Below are positions 18,773 through 30,027 of a DNA stretch of 64,000 nt, one piece after another. Location: NCBI GenBank assembly GCA_030603385.1, contig JAUVXW010000005.1:32001-96000 (forward strand), given 5' to 3'. The notes under the pieces were generated by a model. It did no database searches, was not told the DNA's origin, and saw only the letters and a program-made list of their open reading frames with translations. The DNA is from Promethearchaeota archaeon (GTDB lineage Archaea; Asgardarchaeota; Lokiarchaeia; Sigyniarchaeales; SOKP01). A program made the translations under genes and the position numbers. The first letter of the stretch is position 1; every line of letters begins with the position of its first letter.

Positions 18773-19681
18773 ATGGCTACTATGAAGGTGTGTTTTATTG
18801 GAAAGCCCTCGATGGGGAAATCTACCATTAAAAAGGTTATCTTTGAAGGAGAGGATCCGAGTGAATTAGTTCTTAGCCCTCTTGAAGCAACAATTGGAAT
18901 TAAGTATTCTATACATGAATTTATGGATTCAAAAGTTAGTTTAATTGACGCTCCTGGTCAATCACTACCGATCATATTAGAGGATGAACAAAAACAGATA
19001 CTAACGTTTGGCGACACAAGCGCAATCATATATATATTCGATTATCCAACATGGATATCGGATTCTCAAGACATCATTGACGATGTTAGAAAAATCTATG
19101 AAATCAATAAAAAACATGATTTTGGCGCGAAAATTATATTATTTCTACATAAAATTGATCTTATAATTAAGAAAAAGATCGGTACTCTACTCTCCTTTAT
19201 AAGGCGGCAGATAATCAAACAATTAAATCTTCCAGAAGAAATTCCGGTTTATTTTACCAGTTTACATCCAAACTTAATATATACTACTTACAATGCAATT
19301 TCGAATACAATTAGTGATTTCTCTGAAAACACCTCATCTTTAAAGGAAAGTATCAAGAATCTTTTAAAAAATTCATCAAAAACAAGCTGTTTTGTAACTA
19401 ATCGAGACGATTACCTTGTAATTCAAGAAATATCAAATGATTTTGATGCTAACATTTTGTATTATTTATATGAGGAAGTTTATAATATTAGCAAGTCTCC
19501 TGAAATAATTTCAACAAAAAGCAATGTAGTAAGCTTGGGTCCGAAATTGTTTAATAGGGTAATAGGTAGTATAATTAACCATAATTCTAATTTTAAAAAT
19601 ATTGTACTATTTTCTGAAACTTTAGAGAAAGAGGATATGATAAAGATATTAGATGAATTAAAGAAGGATTTAAATCAATAA
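18773..19681 (+). CDS. Rag/Gtr1-like small GTPase with C-terminal roadblock-like extension
   Basis: G1 GKPSMGKSTIKKVIF, G2 EATIG, G3 DAPGQ, G4 with Rag-typical His (LHKID), G5 FTSL; about 120-aa C-terminal domain. Confidence 0.8.
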   Translation: MATMKVCFIGKPSMGKSTIKKVIFEGEDPSELVLSPLEATIGIKYSIHEFMDSKVSLIDAPGQSLPIILEDEQKQILTFGDTSAIIYIFDYPTWISDSQDIIDDVRKIYEINKKHDFGAKIILFLHKIDLIIKKKIGTLLSFIRRQIIKQLNLPEEIPVYFTSLHPNLIYTTYNAISNTISDFSENTSSLKESIKNLLKNSSKTSCFVTNRDDYLVIQEISNDFDANILYYLYEEVYNISKSPEIISTKSNVVSLGPKLFNRVIGSIINHNSNFKNIVLFSETLEKEDMIKILDELKKDLNQ

Positions 19682-19718: not shown

Positions 19719-20768
19719 ATGCTACGCGAAATATTTATAATTTTAAATGATAAATTGATCTATCAGAGGAGTTATGCCAAAGGATTAGATACTTCTCTTT
19801 TTACAAATGTATATCAAAAAGTTAAAAAAGTAGCATTTTCTAAGTTTGGAAGCGAAACTGGAATATATGAATTTTTTGAGTATAAACTCTCATATATAGT
19901 CAATGAGAATTCTGATTTAGTTTTACTTTTTGTATCTGGATTAGGCGATGATTTTAAAGATATTGAACCCCAACTGAAAAAATTCAAAAAAGAATTCTTA
20001 GAATATTATGGTGATAGTCTCAAAAAAGATGATTTCGAAATAATAAATGAAGTTTTAGATCCAATAGTTGACAATATCCATAGAAACCTTAAACCTAAAA
20101 TTTCAATTGTTGGGTTTTCTGGAGTTGGGAAAACAACTACTACTAGATTAATAAAATCAGAGGAAATCCCAATGCAACACATTCCTACAATAACAGGTGA
20201 GGTGGCAACCATCAAGATTGGCAAACTAAACTTCTACCTTTGGGATTTCGCTGGCCAAAATCAATTCGATTTTCTATGGGAAAAGTTCATAAGAGGGAGC
20301 GATGCAGTGCTCCTAATGACCGATTCGACACTGGAGAACTTAGAAAAAAGCCGATTCTTTATTGAACTAGTTAATAAGGCGGTGCCTTATGCTCGATTTG
20401 CGGTAATTGCGAATAAACAGGATTTGCCCGAAGCGAAGGAAGTCGAGGACATAGAAAGATTAATGGGCAATAAGACATATGGATTTGTAGCAATAGATAC
20501 TAATAATCGTCCAAAAATGATACGTATAATAGCAGATTTATTAGATATGGATAGAAAAGTATCACCATTATTAAAACCCTTACTTGAGAGAGATAACCTG
20601 ATGGATGAAGCACAGAAGGCTTTGGAAGATGGAGAATTTGGAGAAGCTGCTGCACTTTTTGAAAATATCAGCAATTTGTGTCTCGAATTAGGAGATGACT
20701 CCCTTGCTATTGATTTTCAAAACAAAAGTGAGAAAATAAGTAGTATGTTAAAATCACTTACTAGTTAG
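19719..20768 (+). CDS. Longin domain-Arf-like small GTPase fusion with C-terminal helical hairpin
   Basis: Longin-like N-terminus (MLREIFIILNDKLIYQRSY...LVLLFVSG); G1 GFSGVGKT, G2 PTI, G3 WDFAGQ, G4 NKQD; TPR/MIT-like tail. Confidence 0.85.
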   Translation: MLREIFIILNDKLIYQRSYAKGLDTSLFTNVYQKVKKVAFSKFGSETGIYEFFEYKLSYIVNENSDLVLLFVSGLGDDFKDIEPQLKKFKKEFLEYYGDSLKKDDFEIINEVLDPIVDNIHRNLKPKISIVGFSGVGKTTTTRLIKSEEIPMQHIPTITGEVATIKIGKLNFYLWDFAGQNQFDFLWEKFIRGSDAVLLMTDSTLENLEKSRFFIELVNKAVPYARFAVIANKQDLPEAKEVEDIERLMGNKTYGFVAIDTNNRPKMIRIIADLLDMDRKVSPLLKPLLERDNLMDEAQKALEDGEFGEAAALFENISNLCLELGDDSLAIDFQNKSEKISSMLKSLTS

Positions 20769-20804: not shown

Positions 20805-22472
20805 CTAATTCTTCCAGGTTCTTGTTAAATTTTGTAAAAATACTAAGACTTCTTTATCTCCAAGTGGAATTATATTTGATTGAAAGATTATTTGATTATT
20901 GTCTATTGGTACAATGAATTTCATTTCTTTAGGTTCATTGTCATTTAGAGCTTGTTCTATTTTTTCTTGAGCCTCTTCTGCAGTTTCGAGCGGTAGAAGC
21001 TTATTTATAGGTTTTCCTATAAAGTTTTTTGTAGTAAACATTTGTTCCATTATTGCTTCAATTTTTTTATCTAATTTAATATCTAACAATATACCATTCT
21101 TTGATATTCTGAAAATCGAGAATGGAATATGTTCAAAGAGAATGTTATTCTGTATTTCACTTTGTCGTAGCTCCTCTTTATTTTGCATCCTTTCTATTGC
21201 AGTGCCTAATTCTAACCCAATTGTAATTATTAATTCCATCTCTTCAGGTAATAGCGATCTAGTATCTTTAAAGACCATGTTTAATGAACCAATAATTTCA
21301 AGCTTTGAAAATAAAGGAATTATTGCAGTAGAATTAACTTCTATTCCATCAAAAAATCTTTTAATAACTTCTGGAAAATTATCATTAATAAGTGCTACAC
21401 CTTTAGTAAACACAATATCATAAGGATCTTTGTTAATATCCAATTCACTATGCTGTAGGACAAAATAAGACGGAAAACCTTTATGTACTTTAATTCTTGC
21501 CACATTTTGAGATTTTTCTATTAAATAAATGCTACATCCCTTAAGATCAAATAAATCAATAAAACTATCTCGTATCTTCGCTAACAATTCAGATAAATTA
21601 TTCGCTTGATTAGCTATACTTATGATTCTATTCAAGATATCAGTCTTTTTAACTTGCTCCTTAAGTTTATCTTCAATCAAATGTATATCAGTTATATCAT
21701 GAAATAGATATTGAATAAAATATTGATCTGCCAGTTGTATTTCGTTTACACTAACTTCTAAATACATTTGTGTACCTGTAGATTTTTTTATTCTAGAAAT
21801 AATTGGAGGTGGTTGATCAATTAAATGTTTTACCATATTTCGATCAACTAAACCTTCATCAAACAATTCAAACTCTAATGCCTCAATGCCAATAATGTCA
21901 TCTCTTGTTTTTTCGACTAATTTTTCTCCTTCTAAATTAACATCAACTATTACTCCTGATTCCCGATTCATTATGAAAATAGCATCCCTCGCTGCTTTAA
22001 ATAGAGCCTGATATCGGTGTTCAGCCATTACTAAAGTCTTAATTGCGGGTTTAATTGATTCAAAATAAGAAAAAAAGAAGTTTTTAATTTCATGTAATTT
22101 GTTAGGATCAGCTTTAAAATCTTTGGGTTCATGATCGAAAGCCCTATATGCATCATCAAGTTTTATGATATATTGAGCACATCCGGCTAGAAGTTCATTG
22201 GCAAGCATTAAAGTTAAATTTGTACTTGATTCAGTAACTAGCGACAGTAGAAAACTCTCGTATCCACCTCTAGCAAATGGACTGAGTAGTTTGAAAAACA
22301 AATTTGCTGTTTTTAATTTTCCAAATATATGAATAAATACACCTTTAGTTGGAAGCTCCATTAGTGAAGGAATCTTACTCACAATTTCATCCTCTAATGA
22401 TTGAGGTGCTTTTAAAACTATCTTGGGTCCGTATAGAGGATCGAAACGACTTAAAATTAATGCAACTTCCAA
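20805..22472 (-). CDS. uDENN/longin-PAS-GAF-PAS protein with no kinase output
   Basis: N-terminus 'LILSRFDPLYGPKIVLKAP...FFKLLSPFARGGYESFLLSLV'; PAS 'YQALFKAARDAIFI...DVN...HDITD'; GAF 'IIPLFSKLEIIGSLNM...LGTAIER'; second PAS ending 'QNLT'. Confidence 0.8.
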   Translation of the reverse strand: MEVALILSRFDPLYGPKIVLKAPQSLEDEIVSKIPSLMELPTKGVFIHIFGKLKTANLFFKLLSPFARGGYESFLLSLVTESSTNLTLMLANELLAGCAQYIIKLDDAYRAFDHEPKDFKADPNKLHEIKNFFFSYFESIKPAIKTLVMAEHRYQALFKAARDAIFIMNRESGVIVDVNLEGEKLVEKTRDDIIGIEALEFELFDEGLVDRNMVKHLIDQPPPIISRIKKSTGTQMYLEVSVNEIQLADQYFIQYLFHDITDIHLIEDKLKEQVKKTDILNRIISIANQANNLSELLAKIRDSFIDLFDLKGCSIYLIEKSQNVARIKVHKGFPSYFVLQHSELDINKDPYDIVFTKGVALINDNFPEVIKRFFDGIEVNSTAIIPLFSKLEIIGSLNMVFKDTRSLLPEEMELIITIGLELGTAIERMQNKEELRQSEIQNNILFEHIPFSIFRISKNGILLDIKLDKKIEAIMEQMFTTKNFIGKPINKLLPLETAEEAQEKIEQALNDNEPKEMKFIVPIDNNQIIFQSNIIPLGDKEVLVFLQNLTRTWKN

Positions 22473-24422: not shown

Positions 24423-25346
24423 ATGCCAAAAGCTATAATTTTATACGAAATAGATCAATCATTTGGACCAAATATATTAGCAGAATATTATTTAAAACAA
24501 GATGATAAAATACCAACAAGTATATTAAGAGAATTTTCTGAAAAACATGTAAAAAAAGGTTATTCGGATGTAACTATTCGCGACGAAAACAATCGCTATT
24601 ATTCAAATATAGTTAATGCTGAGTCAATTGATAAAGAAAATCTCTATTTAGGATTTATATTACAAGAAGGAGAGGATCTTCTCTCGTTAAAAAGCATCTT
24701 TGAAAATATTGAAGGAAAAGTTGTGCAAGACTTTTCCGCTGATAAGAAGGAGATGACTGAACTTCTAAAAGATGGTTTAAATTCAATATTAAGTTTAATT
24801 CAAAAACTCCAAGAACCTAAAATTATAAAAGAAATTTTGAATGAAAGAACGAAAAAAATGCTTGATGATGGTCTTCTCCAAGAAGCAAGAGAATTGATTG
24901 ATATTGGTGAAGAAATTCCTGAAAAACTTGCAGAAGAAGTTAAAGTTGCTGAAAAATTACTAACTGCTAAAGAATATAGAAAAGCAAAAAAAAGTTTTCT
25001 TAAAGCTTCAGAGTTGGCAACACTCGTACAAGAAGAGAAAATTGCTTCTTTTTTAAAAAATAAAGGCGAACAAGTTGGTATGTTCCCTGATTTGCTAAGA
25101 GAACGTGAGAATCTTCAGAAAGAAATAGTAAAAATCACAAGTGAATTTGAGGATAATAAATTACATCTAGATGATTTATTAGTCGAACCGGTAGATAGGT
25201 TAATCGAAATTTCAAATAATTTTGAAGAAAATGAAATAATAAGGGAATTAACAAAATTAAAAAACAATATACAAAGAGTTTCTCGATTAGCAAAAGAATT
25301 AGAAGGATTAAAAAATAAGATAAAAGAAAATTTAACAAATATTTAA
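24423..25346 (+). CDS. uDENN/longin-like domain protein with helical/coiled-coil C-terminus
   Basis: 'AIILYEIDQSFGPNILAEY' longin/uDENN start; helical module resembling the tail of 19719..20768; C-terminal coiled coil. Confidence 0.6.
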   Translation: MPKAIILYEIDQSFGPNILAEYYLKQDDKIPTSILREFSEKHVKKGYSDVTIRDENNRYYSNIVNAESIDKENLYLGFILQEGEDLLSLKSIFENIEGKVVQDFSADKKEMTELLKDGLNSILSLIQKLQEPKIIKEILNERTKKMLDDGLLQEARELIDIGEEIPEKLAEEVKVAEKLLTAKEYRKAKKSFLKASELATLVQEEKIASFLKNKGEQVGMFPDLLRERENLQKEIVKITSEFEDNKLHLDDLLVEPVDRLIEISNNFEENEIIRELTKLKNNIQRVSRLAKELEGLKNKIKENLTNI

Positions 25347-25347
25347 T

Positions 25348-27165
25348 TTATTCTGATGAATCTTCATCTAGAGTAGGTTCTTCTGTTTTAGGTGGTACAT
25401 ATTCACCAATATCTTTAAAAATAATCTTAGCTATATCCCATCCTCTTTGTGTTGGATATTTTAAGGCATTTTTAATCAATTCTTCTCCAATCTCATTATT
25501 TAACTCTACCCTATGAATATCCGGATTGCCTTTTAGAATCATCTCATACTTTGCGCCTCCAGTCCCTTGGGGTACTATTAGAATTCCATAATCTATTACT
25601 TTTTCTGAAATCGCATCTTTTAAACGTTTTGCAGCGTAATACCCTGCTACTCCCGCGCTTCTATCGAAAGTTTTAATAGATGGAATTTCCAAACCCCATT
25701 TTCTACCTTCTGCTTCGATCAAAGCAGCTAAAGTTTGCGCTCTTTTACCCATCTTAAACTTAAATTCCATTTGAGTTTTATATTTCTTTCCTTTATTATC
25801 ACCCACCATATTAATACACTTTAAAGTAGCACCGGCTACAGATTGAGGATTTACATCTATAGAATATTCTTCTTCTGCCAATATGTCTTCAATTGTCTTT
25901 TTAATAACTTCTCTGGGTTTTGAAAAATCTATTGCTTCTTCTTCAACATCCGATTTAGGTCTAGCAGTTGCAACAATGTCCGCTCCTACTTCTAAAAGCT
26001 CTTCTACAGTCATCTCTTCCATAACCACTTTGTCAATAAATCTTCTGCAAAGTTTGATAGAATTCCTTGGATTTCCTTTAGTCTTTTCATAAATCATTTC
26101 AATTAATTTTTCATTCAAGGGAAATAATGGATATAAAGGAGGATTTAAATTGTTATCCTCCCAAAAACTCTCCATGGATTTGGAGAAAAATATTTTAAGG
26201 TCATTTAGACTGAAAGGTTTTAATTCTTGTTCTGGTTCCATTCTCGAGCGTAATGGGGCGTCTGCTATTTCAATAATTCTTGGCCATATTTCCTTTAACA
26301 CAGCTATAGTAATGACTAATCCTTTCACTTCATTATACAATCTCTTTAAAATTTCCAAAAACTTTCTTTCAGCAACTTCACCTAACATGCGATAGGGCGA
26401 CTCGAGTTCATCAAAATATAGAATTAGAACTTTATCTAAATTCTCCGTGATGATTTTAATAAGGGCTAAGCACACATCATCTTCCTCAACAACAGAATTT
26501 ATTCCTAATTCATTTAATTCCTCATCCTCTAAACCTTCTCCGAGGAGCCATCTTTCTGCTAAAGCCTTCTTATTTTTATCTAATTGATAAGTAACTAATG
26601 CTTTCACACAATCTGCAAAAACACCAGGAAATTCCCTAATACCAACTTGAATTACTTCATCAATTTTAGGTTTTTGAAATAATCCTTTTTTCTCACCGCC
26701 CCACTTTTTAATTAATCTTTCAGAAACAGTATCTAATAGTTCTGCACCGAGTTCCTCGATAATACAAGTATATACATGAAGTAATACTCGAATACTCGCA
26801 GGAGGACTAGGAACATAAACAATTGTCCAATCTACAGGTAAAACGCCTACTTCTATTTCTTGAACTTCTTGTGATTGTTCTAATTTCTTTTTGTTCTCTC
26901 TTTCCTTAACCTTAAATGAGTGGTATGCGTGGGTTTTACCTGAACCCGCGCTTCCCAACAAGGGAATTAATCGGCTACTTCTGTCCCTAGAAGTTTGTTG
27001 TACGAGTCTAAAGACTTCTCGATCTATATAACTCCTTGGCCTAGCAATGTCAACTCTATCTGGGATGTCACCACGACTCACAAAGTTCGAAAAGGGCATA
27101 ATTGGAGCTTCACGTAAAACATCCAAATACATTGCCTTGTCATCGTCACTTAATTCACTATACAT
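25348..27165 (-). CDS. P-loop AAA-type ATPase (BrxD/DUF2791-like) with C-terminal alpha/beta domain
   Basis: Walker A GSAGSGKT, Walker B LYFDELE, 'AERWLLGE', 'LRSR', 'GNPR'. Confidence 0.7.
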   Translation of the reverse strand: MYSELSDDDKAMYLDVLREAPIMPFSNFVSRGDIPDRVDIARPRSYIDREVFRLVQQTSRDRSSRLIPLLGSAGSGKTHAYHSFKVKERENKKKLEQSQEVQEIEVGVLPVDWTIVYVPSPPASIRVLLHVYTCIIEELGAELLDTVSERLIKKWGGEKKGLFQKPKIDEVIQVGIREFPGVFADCVKALVTYQLDKNKKALAERWLLGEGLEDEELNELGINSVVEEDDVCLALIKIITENLDKVLILYFDELESPYRMLGEVAERKFLEILKRLYNEVKGLVITIAVLKEIWPRIIEIADAPLRSRMEPEQELKPFSLNDLKIFFSKSMESFWEDNNLNPPLYPLFPLNEKLIEMIYEKTKGNPRNSIKLCRRFIDKVVMEEMTVEELLEVGADIVATARPKSDVEEEAIDFSKPREVIKKTIEDILAEEEYSIDVNPQSVAGATLKCINMVGDNKGKKYKTQMEFKFKMGKRAQTLAALIEAEGRKWGLEIPSIKTFDRSAGVAGYYAAKRLKDAISEKVIDYGILIVPQGTGGAKYEMILKGNPDIHRVELNNEIGEELIKNALKYPTQRGWDIAKIIFKDIGEYVPPKTEEPTLDEDSSE

Positions 27166-28180: not shown

Positions 28181-30027
28181 ATTGAGTAAATTTTAACTTT
28201 TAATCTTTTTATTTTTTTCTATTTCTTTACTTGGTTATTCGAGTTAAGAAGGTAATCTATAAAGATTTTTAATTCGTCGGCGTAAAACATCCAAGGAATT
28301 CAAGTAAAGATATCCTGATTTTCGTGCTTTATAAGGGAGCATCTGTCTAAAATTGAAATACCGAGAGGATTCGAAGGCAGAAGGCTTCATTATTAAGTCA
28401 GGACGTCCTAATTTGTATGCTGTCAACGTTTTTAACAGTTCTAATATATAAATTGTGCAACGAAGTTTTACCGCCGCGTCCATTCCTCTTGTATTCATTC
28501 GAAAGGCATTGTAGTATGTATTATTATATGAATTTCCTTGCTCAATCATCGGACGAAAGCCGTAGATCTTGAGAAAATAGTCATCCGACCATTCTTTTGG
28601 GATGAAATCCGTATTAAAAAAAAATCCTTTTTTTAACTCCCTTATAGGATGGGTTTTCAGATTCTTCCGTGCTCGAATAATCGGTACTAGACCTTTAGCT
28701 CGGATATTCTCCATGTTTTGCAGAGAATAGGGGCCTGAATCTGCTATGAGCACTTTCCATTCATATTTTGTTAGCTTAAAAAACTCTTCTATTGTTTCTC
28801 TAAACGCGAGGATATCGTTTCGATTTCCAGCAAACATCTTGAAATAAATGGGAAACCAGCGATTAAAACAATGAGCATATAATATTCCAGGATCATATCC
28901 TACCCCCTTTTTTATGCCGTTATGTCGGCAATATCCCGCTTCAAGATCGGAATAATTTGAATGTCCTTTCTCTTTGTTATTGTTACAATTTGACCGTATG
29001 AATTGACCATCCCAAATTAGGATTCTTGGAACGATAATACCACAATCAACGCATTCTTTCGCCAACAGCTGAAAAAACTCAAACAACGCATCCGCAGGGA
29101 TTTTCGTGAGAACATAACTGATATCGTGTGCATCGGGAAAAAAGTCAGGGTCGTGGGTGATACTAATTAAAGGTGGATCAGTTATAAACCTGCCCATTCT
29201 CTGAATTCCGGCGTAATTCTTAAAGCCTAAGTTAATCCGCAACATTTCATACGCGAACACATCTTCAATAAACATATCCTTAAATGACACGCCACGATTC
29301 TCAAGAATTCCTTGCAGGTCTTGGAAAAAGCTTAAATCATTAAATTCAAATAGGTTTTCAAAGAATCCATTAAAACCCTTAAGATATCGATGCATTTCCC
29401 ATTCCATTTTAGAGATCACTCCCAATCCAAATTCTTTAAAACGAGGGATCTTTACGCGAGAGAACCGATATAAGTATTTATCTTTTAGTTTAGGCACCCA
29501 ATCTATGAAGTCCTGTATCTTTTTCTGGAATTTGGACAAGATTCTCGTAGTAGATGATGCCCTCTTCCCCCATGTGGGATGTATTGGAATCCAACGAAAT
29601 TTTTTTCGAGCAATTCTATAATCTCTTGGGACACTCATATCATAAGTTTCGATAGATTTTAATCCAATGAAATCTGTCAATTGTGTTTGATAAATACTGG
29701 GCTTAATTCTATATAAGATTATTATCATGATGAACACTTTTTAAGATCTATAATAAACTATTAGGTAATCGCCTATTTATTCTTTTTGGTTAAGATTTAA
29801 ATCTATAATTAATCGAATACAGATCTCCTCTTTTATTTAAATTCTAATGCAAATAGAAATCCAGAGAATTTAATCTTGATGCTTAAATTTTGCGCTCGCT
29901 TTACGTGTAATGGATGTCTCAAATCGCACGACATAAATCTAATAGGTATAGAACTATTATAAAGGAAGCAATTAATATAAGAATAAGTAAAAAAAGTAAA
30001 AAATTTAGAGTTTAAAATTTACTCAAT
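28181..30027 (-). mobile_element. Insertion sequence (1847 bp) with 16-bp terminal inverted repeats and apparent 3-bp TTA target duplication
   Basis: ATTGAGTAAATTTTAA at 28181-28196 and its reverse complement at 30012-30027; TTA at 28178-28180 and 30028-30030; single transposase; higher GC than flanks. Confidence 0.8.
28244..29737 (-). CDS. DDE transposase (IS4/IS5 superfamily)
   Basis: 'IWDGQFI', 'IADSG', 'YGFRPMIEQGN' (YRE-type motif); likely start is ATG at 29638 (MSVPRDY). Confidence 0.85.
   Translation of the reverse strand: MFIMIIILYRIKPSIYQTQLTDFIGLKSIETYDMSVPRDYRIARKKFRWIPIHPTWGKRASSTTRILSKFQKKIQDFIDWVPKLKDKYLYRFSRVKIPRFKEFGLGVISKMEWEMHRYLKGFNGFFENLFEFNDLSFFQDLQGILENRGVSFKDMFIEDVFAYEMLRINLGFKNYAGIQRMGRFITDPPLISITHDPDFFPDAHDISYVLTKIPADALFEFFQLLAKECVDCGIIVPRILIWDGQFIRSNCNNNKEKGHSNYSDLEAGYCRHNGIKKGVGYDPGILYAHCFNRWFPIYFKMFAGNRNDILAFRETIEEFFKLTKYEWKVLIADSGPYSLQNMENIRAKGLVPIIRARKNLKTHPIRELKKGFFFNTDFIPKEWSDDYFLKIYGFRPMIEQGNSYNNTYYNAFRMNTRGMDAAVKLRCTIYILELLKTLTAYKLGRPDLIMKPSAFESSRYFNFRQMLPYKARKSGYLYLNSLDVLRRRIKNLYRLPS

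What the first reader, a model, noticed from the sequence alone, without database searches (positions are those of the whole stretch)
20805..22472. Kinase-less PAS-GAF-PAS sensor whose only output domain is a longin with a putative arginine finger (Arg68)
Seen: the protein ends right after its second PAS domain, with no HisKA/HATPase, GGDEF or HTH, so the N-terminal ~145 aa is the only candidate effector. It begins 'LILSRFDPLYGPKIVLKAP', like the F-x-x-x-x-GP hairpin of NPRL2/uDENN longins. It also contains 'FFKLLSPFARGGYESFLLSLV' (Arg codon AGA at 22269-22271). From memory, the catalytic arginines of FLCN (R164, '...FFIKDSLARGF...') and SMCR8 (R147, '...ARGF...') sit in the same beta4-beta5 loop context. 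Inference: a ligand- or redox-regulated one-component GAP.
Basis: partly seen in the sequence, partly recalled or inferred. Interest (0 to 1): 0.85.

Follow-up and report, generated by a model that had tools for sequence, protein, structure and literature searches.

The report
Sensor-fused folliculin-type longin beside GTPases
A Lokiarchaeial (Asgard) protein joins a longin domain of the folliculin/NPRL2/SMCR8 kind, with that kind's conserved arginine and Gly-Pro motif, to PAS-GAF-PAS sensor domains and lies tail-to-tail with a Rag-like and an Arf-like GTPase gene; it is a good but unproven candidate for a signal-controlled GTPase off-switch of a protein type already in the literature.

Summary
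Window 20805-22472 (-) encodes a 555-aa protein with PAS (153-262), GAF (291-428) and PAS (~452-550). It has no kinase, cyclase or DNA-binding domain, and Arg68 is AGA at 22269-22271.

Residues 1-150 fold with high confidence (pLDDT 94.7) as a longin. The best solved matches are NPRL2, a Lokiarchaeal longin, FLCN, Npr2 and C9orf72/SMCR8. Arg68 sits in the beta4-beta5 loop, where the literature places the FLCN and SMCR8 arginine fingers. It is kept in 134 of 140 diverse family representatives; Gly15-Pro16 is kept in 87 of 92.

About a third of family representatives carry an Arf-like GTPase domain in the same chain. Others carry PAS/GAF arrays, with or without a histidine kinase. The sensor, Arf-like and Rag-like genes stay adjacent in homologs down to 48% longin identity. 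Within the genus, all three are present or all three are missing.

GAP activity, the ligand and the partner are untested. I could not superpose coordinates, and the complex prediction gave no verdict.

[quoted passage not shown] This scan has also found and followed up the same protein on other DNA (e1-5513043).

Verdict: new member of a known kind, with a useful regulator-target pairing.

The parts
20805..22472 (-). Sensor gene: 555-aa longin-PAS-GAF-PAS protein (P0001), TTG start
   Evidence: ORF list and translation. Pfam and NCBIfam domains. More than 100 full-length homolog clusters in Lokiarchaeia/Promethearchaeota.
22023..22472 (-). Residues 1-150: longin domain of the FLCN/NPRL2/SMCR8 ('GAP') type, with topology b-b-a-b-b-b-a-a
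   Evidence: AF2 model pLDDT 94.7, pTM 0.89. Foldseek top hits are NPRL2, Npr2 and FLCN, E 5e-6 to 1e-3. VIA-align: NPRL2 Z 12.6, Loki longin 8yqg 12.2, FLCN 12.0, Npr2 11.4, C9orf72-SMCR8 entry 10.7. ESM Atlas search agrees.
22425..22430 (-). Gly15-Pro16: 'GP motif' at the start of strand beta2
   Evidence: Kept in 87 of 92 diverse family members. Strand beta2 spans residues 15-22 in the model. The motif is defined in PMC12290439.
22269..22271 (-). Arg68 (AGA): candidate arginine finger in the beta4-beta5 loop
   Evidence: Codon read directly. The loop lies between strands 53-63 and 71-81. Kept in 86 of 92 and in 134 of 140 family members. The FLCN and SMCR8 fingers are placed in the longin bL4-bL5 loop in the literature.
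21687..22016 (-). Residues 153-262: PAS domain 1, reached from the longin by one unbroken helix (123-160)
   Evidence: Pfam PAS_9/PAS E 1e-9 and TIGR00229 E 5e-12. Full-length AF2 secondary structure.
21189..21602 (-). Residues 291-428: GAF domain, flanked by long linker helices 261-289 and 409-447
   Evidence: Pfam GAF_3 E 1.4e-7. Full-length model.
20823..21119 (-). Residues ~452-550: PAS domain 2, the last domain of the protein
   Evidence: Pfam PAS_4 479-550, E 2e-4, just under the curated cut-off. Model strands 452-548.
19719..20768 (+). Arf-like GTPase (P0271, 349 aa). It has an N-terminal ~115-aa extension (probable plain longin, no GP/Arg) and a C-terminal helical tail. It is convergent with the sensor, with stop codons 36 bp apart.
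   Evidence: Pfam Arf E 4e-18 at 123-253. Best PDB hit is Arf1, E 4e-16. G motifs read in the sequence. Adjacent to the sensor in all homolog loci examined. The longin assignment of the N-terminus is inferred and was not folded here.
18773..19681 (+). Rag/Gtr-like GTPase (P0272, 302 aa), 37 bp upstream of the Arf-like gene on the same strand
   Evidence: Pfam Gtr1_RagA E 7e-23, above cut-off. Best PDB hits are Gtr1 and RagA, E 1e-9 to 6e-8, over residues 4-248. Rag-type H-K-x-D motif read in the sequence.
24423..25346 (+). 307-aa protein (P0273) with an N-terminal D-x3-G-P hairpin like the sensor's, no arginine in the equivalent loop, and a coiled-coil-like tail. It is a possible second longin; whether it belongs to the module is uncertain.
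   Evidence: Translation. Orthologs conserve the GP hairpin. Profile comparison with the sensor family covers only 17-18 columns, probability 5%. It is present in two same-genus genomes that lack the sensor.

Best explanation
The gene encodes a soluble, kinase-less signalling protein of a Lokiarchaeial archaeon. Its N-terminal domain is a longin of the folliculin/NPRL2/SMCR8 type, and a PAS-GAF-PAS array follows it. Long continuous helices join the domains.

Most likely it is a signal-controlled regulator of the two GTPases encoded tail-to-tail with it: a Rag/Gtr-like protein and an Arf-like protein with its own N-terminal extension.

The proposed mechanism has four steps.
1. The PAS/GAF domains bind an unknown small molecule or cofactor.
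2. The change passes along the helical linkers to the longin domain. The protein is probably a homodimer, or a heterodimer with another longin.
3. The longin platform docks the GTP-bound GTPase.
4. Arg68, next to the Gly15-Pro16 hairpin, enters the nucleotide pocket and speeds GTP hydrolysis.

Shown here: the fold, the motifs and their conservation, the family's frequent fusion to Arf-like GTPase domains, and the conserved gene triad. Inferred: binding, GAP chemistry, which of the two GTPases is the target, and what is sensed.
For: Fold:
- AF2 pLDDT 94.7 with longin topology.
- The nearest solved structures are the GAP longins: NPRL2 Z 12.6, FLCN 12.0, Npr2 11.4 and the C9orf72-SMCR8 entry 10.7. 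DENND1A scores 10.6 and the other longin classes 7.5-10.1.
- Foldseek E 5e-6 for NPRL2.
- After Asgard proteins, the ESM Atlas search returns Npr2/NPRL2, a Heimdall folliculin-like cluster and SMCR8.

Motifs:
- Arg68 lies in the beta4-beta5 loop. That is where the FLCN R164 and SMCR8 R147 fingers lie.
- G15-P16 lies at the start of beta2, as the GAP-specific GP motif is defined.
- Conservation: Arg68 134/140, Asn57 139/140, G15 and P16 87/92 each.

Link to GTPases:
- 40 of 130 family representatives carry an Arf-family GTPase domain in the same chain. Some also carry PAS/GAF and a kinase.
- In this genome, 4 of 8 paralogs are fused to a small GTPase gene or lie within 2 kb of one. The background is 13% within 3 kb.

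Triad:
- Sensor, Arf-like and Rag-like genes are adjacent in homologs of 62-76% identity.
- They are also adjacent in a 647-aa longin-PAS relative with 48% longin identity and a different upstream neighbour.
- Within the genus, three genomes have all three orthologs. Two genomes that are 99% complete have none.

Linkers: the full-length model shows unbroken helices 123-160, 261-289 and 409-447 joining the domains.
Against: - There is no activity or binding data.
- The sequence-level link to eukaryotic NPRL2 or FLCN is not significant. The best is NPRL2, E 0.57, over the GP hairpin only. Only 2 of 92 family members hit Pfam Folliculin, weakly.
- The structural margin over non-GAP longins is modest. 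DENND1A scores Z 10.6.
- The genes are convergent, not co-transcribed. The whole region, including Ftr, a transglutaminase-like gene and Hsp20, is syntenic among close relatives. Much of the adjacency could therefore be inherited gene order.
- In one genome of another genus (98% complete), a shortened longin-PAS-GAF ortholog with Arg68 and GP intact persists. It has no Arf-like or Rag-like gene at the locus, and no ortholog of this Rag-like protein was found in that genome.
- Four other longin-PAS(-kinase) relatives have no GTPase gene within the sequence available. Three of them sit beside MFS_2 transporters.
- Eukaryotic longin GAPs need a second longin subunit. None is established here.
Confidence: 0.5

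Rival explanations
1. The longin domain binds a small GTPase but is not a GAP. It would act as a docking platform, exchange factor or effector, as most longin and roadblock dimers do. Arg68 would serve binding or fold stability. The PAS/GAF array would control or report the interaction.
For: Longin/roadblock platforms act mainly as GEFs or scaffolds (PMC10933270). The same longin precedes PAS arrays that end in histidine kinases (P0134, P0131, P0129). There it occupies the usual input position, which suggests that GTPase state could be read by the signalling protein. Structural similarity to the DENND1A GEF longin is nearly as high as to the GAP longins: Z 10.6.
Against: The GP motif and loop arginine are described as specific to GAP-type longins and absent from GEF-type longins (PMC12290439). 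Arg68 and G15-P16 are kept at 94-96% across all architecture classes. Such retention is expected for catalytic residues.
Confidence: 0.25
2. The neighbouring GTPases are not the partners. The adjacency is inherited gene order. The longin acts on other GTPases among the roughly 87 small-GTPase genes in this genome, or on a partner that is not a GTPase.
For: The genes are convergent and the wider region is syntenic among relatives. An ortholog in another genus persists without the two GTPase genes. Several longin-PAS relatives have no nearby GTPase. The genome has at least 11 other Gtr1/RagA-family matches. Tran et al. note that Asgard GTPase genes are generally not in operons with longin genes.
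Against: The triad recurs with a changed upstream neighbour and a changed sensor architecture. The three orthologs are all present or all missing within the genus. However, a single deletion of adjacent genes would give the same pattern.
Confidence: 0.15
3. The protein is a kinase-less modulator. It would pair, through its PAS/GAF/longin domains, with kinase-bearing paralogs of the same family and tune their signalling. The longin would have no enzymatic role.
For: PAS and GAF domains commonly dimerise (established knowledge). Kinase-bearing relatives with the same N-terminal longin exist (12 of 130 representatives carry HATPase_c).
Against: In this genome the other seven family copies lie in ORFs or open frames of 148-376 aa, too short for a longin-PAS-kinase protein. 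This reading also does not explain the near-invariance of Arg68 and GP, or the fusions to GTPase domains.
Confidence: 0.07

Closest known systems
Asgard 'NPRL2-like longin' domains fused to two-component signalling domains (Liu et al., bioRxiv 10.1101/2020.10.19.343400; Fig. 5c)
   Same: Same phylum and the same idea: an NPRL2-like longin joined to prokaryotic signalling domains. The present family includes longin-PAS, longin-PAS-HisKA-HATPase and longin-Arf-PAS/GAF-HATPase forms.
   Different: This member has no kinase or receiver. The paper does not describe, in the text I could read, the fixed pairing with a Rag-like and an Arf-like GTPase gene or the arginine/GP conservation.
Asgard FLCN/SMCR8-type longins with GP motif and arginine finger (Traffic 2025, PMC12290439)
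   Same: GP motif at the beta1-beta2 junction and a neighbouring arginine, in an Asgard longin structurally close to the eukaryotic GAP longins. That paper asks which Arf-related or Rag/Gtr GTPases are the partners.
   Different: That paper rests on 15 mostly Heimdallarchaeial proteins whose sequences I could not obtain, so identity of the families is not shown. Here the longin is fused to PAS-GAF-PAS, in Lokiarchaeia, with candidate partner genes next door.
Eukaryotic longin-domain GAP complexes: GATOR1 NPRL2-NPRL3 (RagA/B), FLCN-FNIP2 (RagC/D), C9orf72-SMCR8 (Arf)
   Same: Longin fold, nearest structural neighbours, GP hairpin, and an arginine in the beta4-beta5 loop. The substrates are Rag- and Arf-family GTPases, the two families encoded beside this gene.
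   Different: There is no DENN or NPRL2-specific C-terminal domain, no established second longin subunit, and no significant sequence similarity. Sensing here would be by PAS/GAF in the same chain rather than by separate sensor proteins.
Asgard longin-GTPase fusion proteins (Tran et al. 2024, PMC10933270; Liu et al.)
   Same: The same longin family is fused directly to Arf-like GTPase domains in about 40 of 130 representative clusters.
   Different: In this protein the GTPase is not in the chain but is encoded by the neighbouring genes.
MglB, the roadblock-fold GAP of the bacterial small GTPase MglA
   Same: A small alpha/beta platform of the roadblock/longin superfamily that regulates a prokaryotic small GTPase. 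It appears among the weaker structural matches (rank 42).
   Different: It has the roadblock, not the longin, topology. From my own knowledge, its GAP mechanism does not use an arginine finger. It has no sensor domains.

Membership tests
Longin domain (fold) | Five-stranded antiparallel sheet with b-b-a-b-b-b-a-a order and no N-terminal helix | tested here: met
   AF2 elements are E3-11, E15-22, H28-39, E45-50, E53-63, E71-81, H88-104 and H123-149, at pLDDT 94.7. Rows with Z of 8 or more in the listed VIA matches are longin-domain proteins.
FLCN/NPRL2/SMCR8-type GAP longins | GP motif at the end of the beta1-beta2 loop or the start of beta2 | tested here: met
   G15-P16 at the start of strand 15-22. 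Kept in 87 of 92 family members. Definition from PMC12290439.
FLCN/NPRL2/SMCR8-type GAP longins | Conserved arginine in the longin beta4-beta5 loop (arginine finger) | tested here: met
   Arg68 lies between strands 53-63 and 71-81 and is kept in 134 of 140. The loop assignment for SMCR8 R147 and FLCN R164 comes from 10.1101/2020.04.16.045708. The equivalence is topological; no coordinate superposition was possible.
FLCN/NPRL2/SMCR8-type GAP longins | Closer in structure to GAP longins than to other longin classes | tested here: met
   VIA Z scores: 12.6 NPRL2, 12.0 FLCN, 11.4 Npr2, 10.7 C9orf72-SMCR8 entry. DENND1A scores 10.6 and the SNARE, adaptor, TRAPP and Mon1-Ccz1 longins score 7.5-10.1. 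Foldseek gives the same order. The margin is modest.
FLCN/NPRL2/SMCR8-type GAP longins | Detectable sequence homology to Pfam NPR2 (PF06218) or Folliculin (PF11704), or to solved NPRL2/FLCN chains | tested here: inconclusive
   This protein has no Pfam hit at 1-150. Two of 92 family members hit PF11704 at E 0.0028. Profile against PDB: NPRL2 E 0.57-1.4 over the GP hairpin only. Nothing was found for the arginine region.
FLCN/NPRL2/SMCR8-type GAP longins | C-terminal DENN domain (FLCN, SMCR8) or NPRL2-specific C-terminal domain | tested here: not met
   The longin is followed by PAS-GAF-PAS. The protein is therefore not an ortholog of FLCN, SMCR8 or NPRL2. At most it shares their longin module.
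FLCN/NPRL2/SMCR8-type GAP longins | Works as a dimer of two longin domains | not testable with these tools
   Candidate partners are a second copy of the sensor, the N-terminal extension of the Arf-like protein, or P0273. None was tested successfully.
FLCN/NPRL2/SMCR8-type GAP longins | Arginine-dependent stimulation of GTP hydrolysis by a Rag- or Arf-family GTPase | not testable with these tools
   This needs a biochemical assay.
Asgard NPRL2-like longin fused to signalling domains (Liu et al.) | NPRL2-like longin in one chain with domains of prokaryotic signal transduction, in an Asgard archaeon | tested here: met
   Longin plus PAS, GAF and PAS. Homologs are named Lokiarchaeota or Promethearchaeota by their sources. 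The family was found in 54 of 151 sampled genomes of the phylum.
Rag/Gtr GTPase family (neighbour P0272) | Match to Pfam Gtr1_RagA above the curated cut-off, with a Rag-type H-K-x-D G4 motif | tested here: met
   81.6 bits against a cut-off of 22. Best solved relatives are Gtr1 and RagA. H-K-I-D read in the sequence. It is one of at least 12 strong matches (E 1e-15 or better) to this family in the genome, so it is not unique.

The most novel reading that the evidence does not exclude
The sensor, the Rag-like GTPase and the longin-Arf-like GTPase form an archaeal forerunner of the GATOR1/folliculin-Rag nutrient switch. A small molecule bound by PAS/GAF would directly gate an arginine-finger longin GAP. 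That GAP would pair with the plain longin of the Arf-like protein, mirroring NPRL2-NPRL3 or FLCN-FNIP, and switch off one of the two GTPases. This would be the first defined regulator-substrate pair for Asgard GP-motif longins.
Probability: 0.3. Interest if true: 0.75.

Novelty: new member of a known kind. Interest (0 to 1): 0.45.

Why it matters
Eukaryotes control Rag and Arf GTPases with longin-domain GAPs (GATOR1, folliculin, C9orf72-SMCR8). These sit at the heart of nutrient sensing and lysosome biology. The origin of these GAPs and the partners of their Asgard look-alikes are open questions, asked explicitly in Traffic 2025.

This locus offers a compact, soluble, three-protein test case. 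It has one longin with the catalytic-type motifs, two candidate substrate GTPases of the right families next door, and built-in sensor domains. A positive GAP assay would show that the arginine-finger longin mechanism predates eukaryotes. It would also show that in Asgard archaea the mechanism is wired to prokaryotic-style small-molecule sensing. A negative result would caution against reading GAP function from the motif.

Tried and rejected
1. Complex prediction. I sent the Arf-like protein with GTP and Mg, and the sensor longin as partner. It gave no verdict (ipSAE 0.01 and 0.00, mark 0.32, controls not run). This is no evidence either way.
2. Profile searches of the longin family against PDB sequences. 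I tried the whole domain, residues 1-86 and residues 40-90. There were no significant hits. NPRL2 appears only at E 0.57-1.4 over the GP hairpin.
3. Profile-profile comparisons. The N-terminal extension of the Arf-like protein against the sensor family gave no match. P0273 against the sensor family matched only 17-18 columns at the GP hairpin, probability 5%. Neither is shown to belong to the sensor's longin family.
4. ESM Atlas search by sequence features gave no usable hit. The search by shape did work.
5. I first thought the Rag-like gene was the only one of its kind in the genome, because phmmer found only itself. A search with Pfam Gtr1_RagA found 20 matches at E <= 1e-5, at least 12 of them strong (E 1e-15 or better). 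That claim is withdrawn.
6. The first GTPase profile I built included the N-terminal extension of the Arf-like protein and gave overlapping envelopes. I rebuilt it from core G domains.
7. Supplementary sequences of the Traffic 2025 Asgard longins are not held. I could not test whether they are the same family.
9. Bacterial promoter and terminator scans are uninformative for an archaeon.
10. A match in genome G144 was flagged as containing stop codons, suggesting a pseudogene. On reading it, it is an intact but shorter ORF that ends after the GAF domain.
Full report
**Observation**

The ORF at window 20805-22472 on the minus strand encodes 555 residues from a TTG start. More than a hundred homolog clusters of 552-555 residues begin at the same point. 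Those that carry a name are labelled Lokiarchaeota or Promethearchaeota.

Pfam and NCBIfam find PAS at 153-262, GAF at 291-428 and a weaker PAS_4 at 479-550. They find nothing at 1-150, and no kinase, cyclase, receiver or DNA-binding domain. The protein ends five residues after the last PAS. The next gene is convergent, 36 bp away.

The quoted motifs are present, and codon 68 is AGA at 22269-22271. The window has about 31% G+C and lies in a 3.9-Mb, 58-contig assembly.

**The N-terminal domain**

A search of 1.8 billion representative proteins with residues 1-150 found 181 clusters. From these I aligned 92 domain sequences of 23-68% identity.

Conservation in that alignment:
- Arg68: 86 of 92
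- Gly15: 87 of 92
- Pro16: 87 of 92
- Asn57: 91 of 92

With this alignment AlphaFold2 gives a model of mean pLDDT 94.7 with the longin order of elements. Gly15-Pro16 opens strand 2. Arg68 lies in the loop between strands 4 (53-63) and 5 (71-81).

Structure searches agree on the closest relatives:
- Foldseek against the PDB puts NPRL2, yeast Npr2 and FLCN first, at E 5e-6 to 1e-3.
- An independent all-against-representatives alignment gives NPRL2 Z 12.6, a Lokiarchaeal longin (8yqg) 12.2, FLCN 12.0, Npr2 11.4 and the C9orf72-SMCR8 entry 10.7. DENND1A scores 10.6 and other longin classes about 7.5-10.1.
- The ESM Atlas search by shape returns Promethearchaeota proteins first. Eukaryotic Npr2/NPRL2, a Heimdall folliculin-like cluster and SMCR8 follow.

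The literature places the GAP-specific GP motif exactly at the beta1-beta2 junction (PMC12290439). It places the SMCR8 Arg147 and FLCN Arg164 finger in the longin bL4-bL5 loop (10.1101/2020.04.16.045708).

The fold and the topological position of both motifs are therefore confirmed. What I could not do is a coordinate superposition of Arg68 on the eukaryotic fingers. Sequence-level links to NPRL2 or FLCN are also not significant.

**What the family is fused to**

Of 130 family representatives, 40 carry an Arf-family GTPase domain, 39 carry PAS domains and 12 carry a histidine-kinase ATPase domain. A few carry HisKA, receiver, GAF or CBS domains.

Individual proteins show a continuum:
- longin-Arf GTPase, about 310 aa
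- longin-PAS x13
- longin-PAS x5-HisKA-HATPase
- longin-Arf-PAS x6
- a 2317-aa longin-Arf-PAS/GAF-HATPase protein

Arg68 is kept in every class:
- 28 of 29 longin-PAS
- 30 of 33 longin-GTPase
- 11 of 13 with both
- 29 of 29 stand-alone
- 36 of 36 others

The frequent fusion to Arf-like GTPase domains is the strongest evidence that this longin works on small GTPases. The kinase-bearing forms warn that the longin need not be an 'output'. It occupies the N-terminal position usual for input or docking modules.

The family was found in 54 of 151 sampled genomes of the phylum. That includes all 25 genomes of the window's family, at 2-8 copies each. It was not found in several other families.

**The neighbourhood**

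Upstream on the other strand lie two genes 37 bp apart.
- The first is a 302-aa Gtr1/RagA-family GTPase. Its Pfam score is 81.6 bits, its best solved relatives are Gtr1 and RagA, and it has the H-K-x-D motif.
- The second is a 349-aa Arf-like GTPase with a ~115-residue N-terminal extension and a helical tail.

From its sequence pattern, the extension looks like a plain longin without GP or arginine. Asgard longin-Arf proteins of 341-347 aa also match the sensor's longin model in shape. I did not fold the extension, and profile comparison with the sensor family finds nothing.

The Rag-like gene is one of at least 12 strong Gtr1/RagA-family matches (E 1e-15 or better) in the genome, so it is not unique.

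**Is the triad a unit?**

For:
- The arrangement recurs in homolog loci of 62-76% identity and in two same-genus species genomes.
- It also recurs beside a 647-aa longin-PAS relative that has only 48% longin identity, no GAF hit and a different upstream gene.
- In the genus, three genomes have orthologs of all three genes. Two genomes that are 99% complete have none.
- A longin-PAS-HATPase relative has a different, Ras-like GTPase gene convergent about 0.5 kb away.
- In this genome, 4 of 8 family copies are fused to a small GTPase gene or lie within 2 kb of one. The background is 13% within 3 kb. My own binomial estimate gives p of about 0.013, on a small sample.

Against:
- The genes are convergent.
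- The whole region is syntenic among close relatives.
- Loss of three adjacent genes can be a single event.
- In a genome of another genus, a shorter but intact longin-PAS-GAF ortholog persists with Arg68 and GP kept. It has no Arf-like or Rag-like gene at the locus, and no ortholog of this Rag-like protein was found in that genome.
- Four other longin-PAS(-kinase) relatives show no GTPase gene in the sequence available. Three of them lie next to MFS_2 transporters.

**How it most likely works**

The full-length model has mean pLDDT 81.9. Its pTM of 0.44 means the relative domain placement is not reliable. It shows the last longin helix running unbroken from residue 123 to 160 into PAS1. It also shows long helices 261-289 and 409-447 joining PAS1 to GAF and GAF to PAS2. 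From established knowledge of PAS/GAF sensors, such helical linkers are typical of dimeric proteins that pass conformational signals along the chain.

Eukaryotic longin GAPs need two longins to cup the GTPase, and neither alone is active. A dimer is therefore expected here, either a homodimer or a pairing with another longin.

I rate 'signal-controlled regulator, most likely an arginine-finger GAP, of the adjacent GTPases' at about 0.5. The rivals are:
- a non-catalytic docking, GEF or effector role: 0.25
- partners elsewhere in the genome: 0.15
- a kinase-less modulator of paralogous sensors: 0.07

The single complex prediction allowed gave no verdict and counts for nothing either way.

**Comparison with what is known**

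Liu et al. [quoted passage not shown] They argue that growth regulation there runs through such systems.

[quoted passage not shown] It asks whether Arf-related or Rag/Gtr GTPases are the partners.

Tran et al. (PMC10933270) describe longin-GTPase fusions and note that GTPase and longin genes are generally not in operons.

The protein is not an ortholog of FLCN, SMCR8 or NPRL2, because it lacks their C-terminal domains. It shares their longin module.

This scan has already met the same protein in other genomes. A follow-up there reached the same reading (e1-5513043).

This report adds:
- family-wide numbers for the motifs
- the architecture census
- the genus-level presence/absence pattern
- the exception in G144
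- the correction that Rag-like genes are numerous in this genome

**Verdict**

This is a new member of a known kind. Its value is as a compact, testable regulator-target candidate rather than as a surprise.

Noticed in passing
window 24423-25346 (+): A 307-aa protein (P0273) starts with a strand-D-x3-G-P hairpin like the sensor's. It has no arginine in the equivalent loop and a long charged helical tail. It has hundreds of 307-aa orthologs, all unnamed. It is missing from the locus and genome of G144 but present in two genomes that lack the sensor. It may be a second, non-catalytic longin.
   Followed up: partly
window 25348-27165 (-): A 605-aa protein has only a weak P-loop hit (BrxC/BrxD-like, E 4e-4). 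It is conserved next to P0273 in relatives and is missing together with P0273 from the syntenic locus of G144.
   Followed up: no
L039, L041, L042 (relatives' loci): Three longin-PAS-histidine-kinase relatives of the sensor each have an MFS_2-type transporter gene immediately downstream and no GTPase gene nearby. This subfamily may be tied to transport rather than to a neighbouring GTPase.
   Followed up: no
P0001 residue 57 (window 22302-22304): Asn57, in strand 4 of the longin, is the most conserved position of the whole family (139 of 140), more so than Arg68. I did not find it mentioned in the papers I read. It may belong to the active pocket.
   Followed up: partly
P0131 (metagenomic relative, 2317 aa): A giant single-chain protein has GP/Arg longin, Arf-like GTPase, many PAS and GAF domains, and a histidine-kinase ATPase domain. 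A GTPase switch and a two-component sensor are joined in one polypeptide.
   Followed up: partly
L056 7654-8979 (genome G144): This ortholog of the sensor ends after the GAF domain (about 445 aa) and lacks the second PAS. The longin motifs are intact. The locus lacks the two GTPase genes, P0273 and the 605-aa gene.
   Followed up: yes
window 28244-29737 (-): A DDE transposase gene (Pfam DDE_Tnp_1) lies about 6 kb from the module. It may mark a breakpoint of local synteny.
   Followed up: no
window 1-64000: ARAGORN finds no tRNA gene in the window. I did not check this.
   Followed up: no
genome G000, 8 places: This genome has eight copies of the GP/Arg longin family. One is fused to a GTPase-like region (C8:40857-41894). 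Two are 366-369-aa proteins, each within 2 kb of a ~198-aa small GTPase gene (C22, C14).
   Followed up: partly
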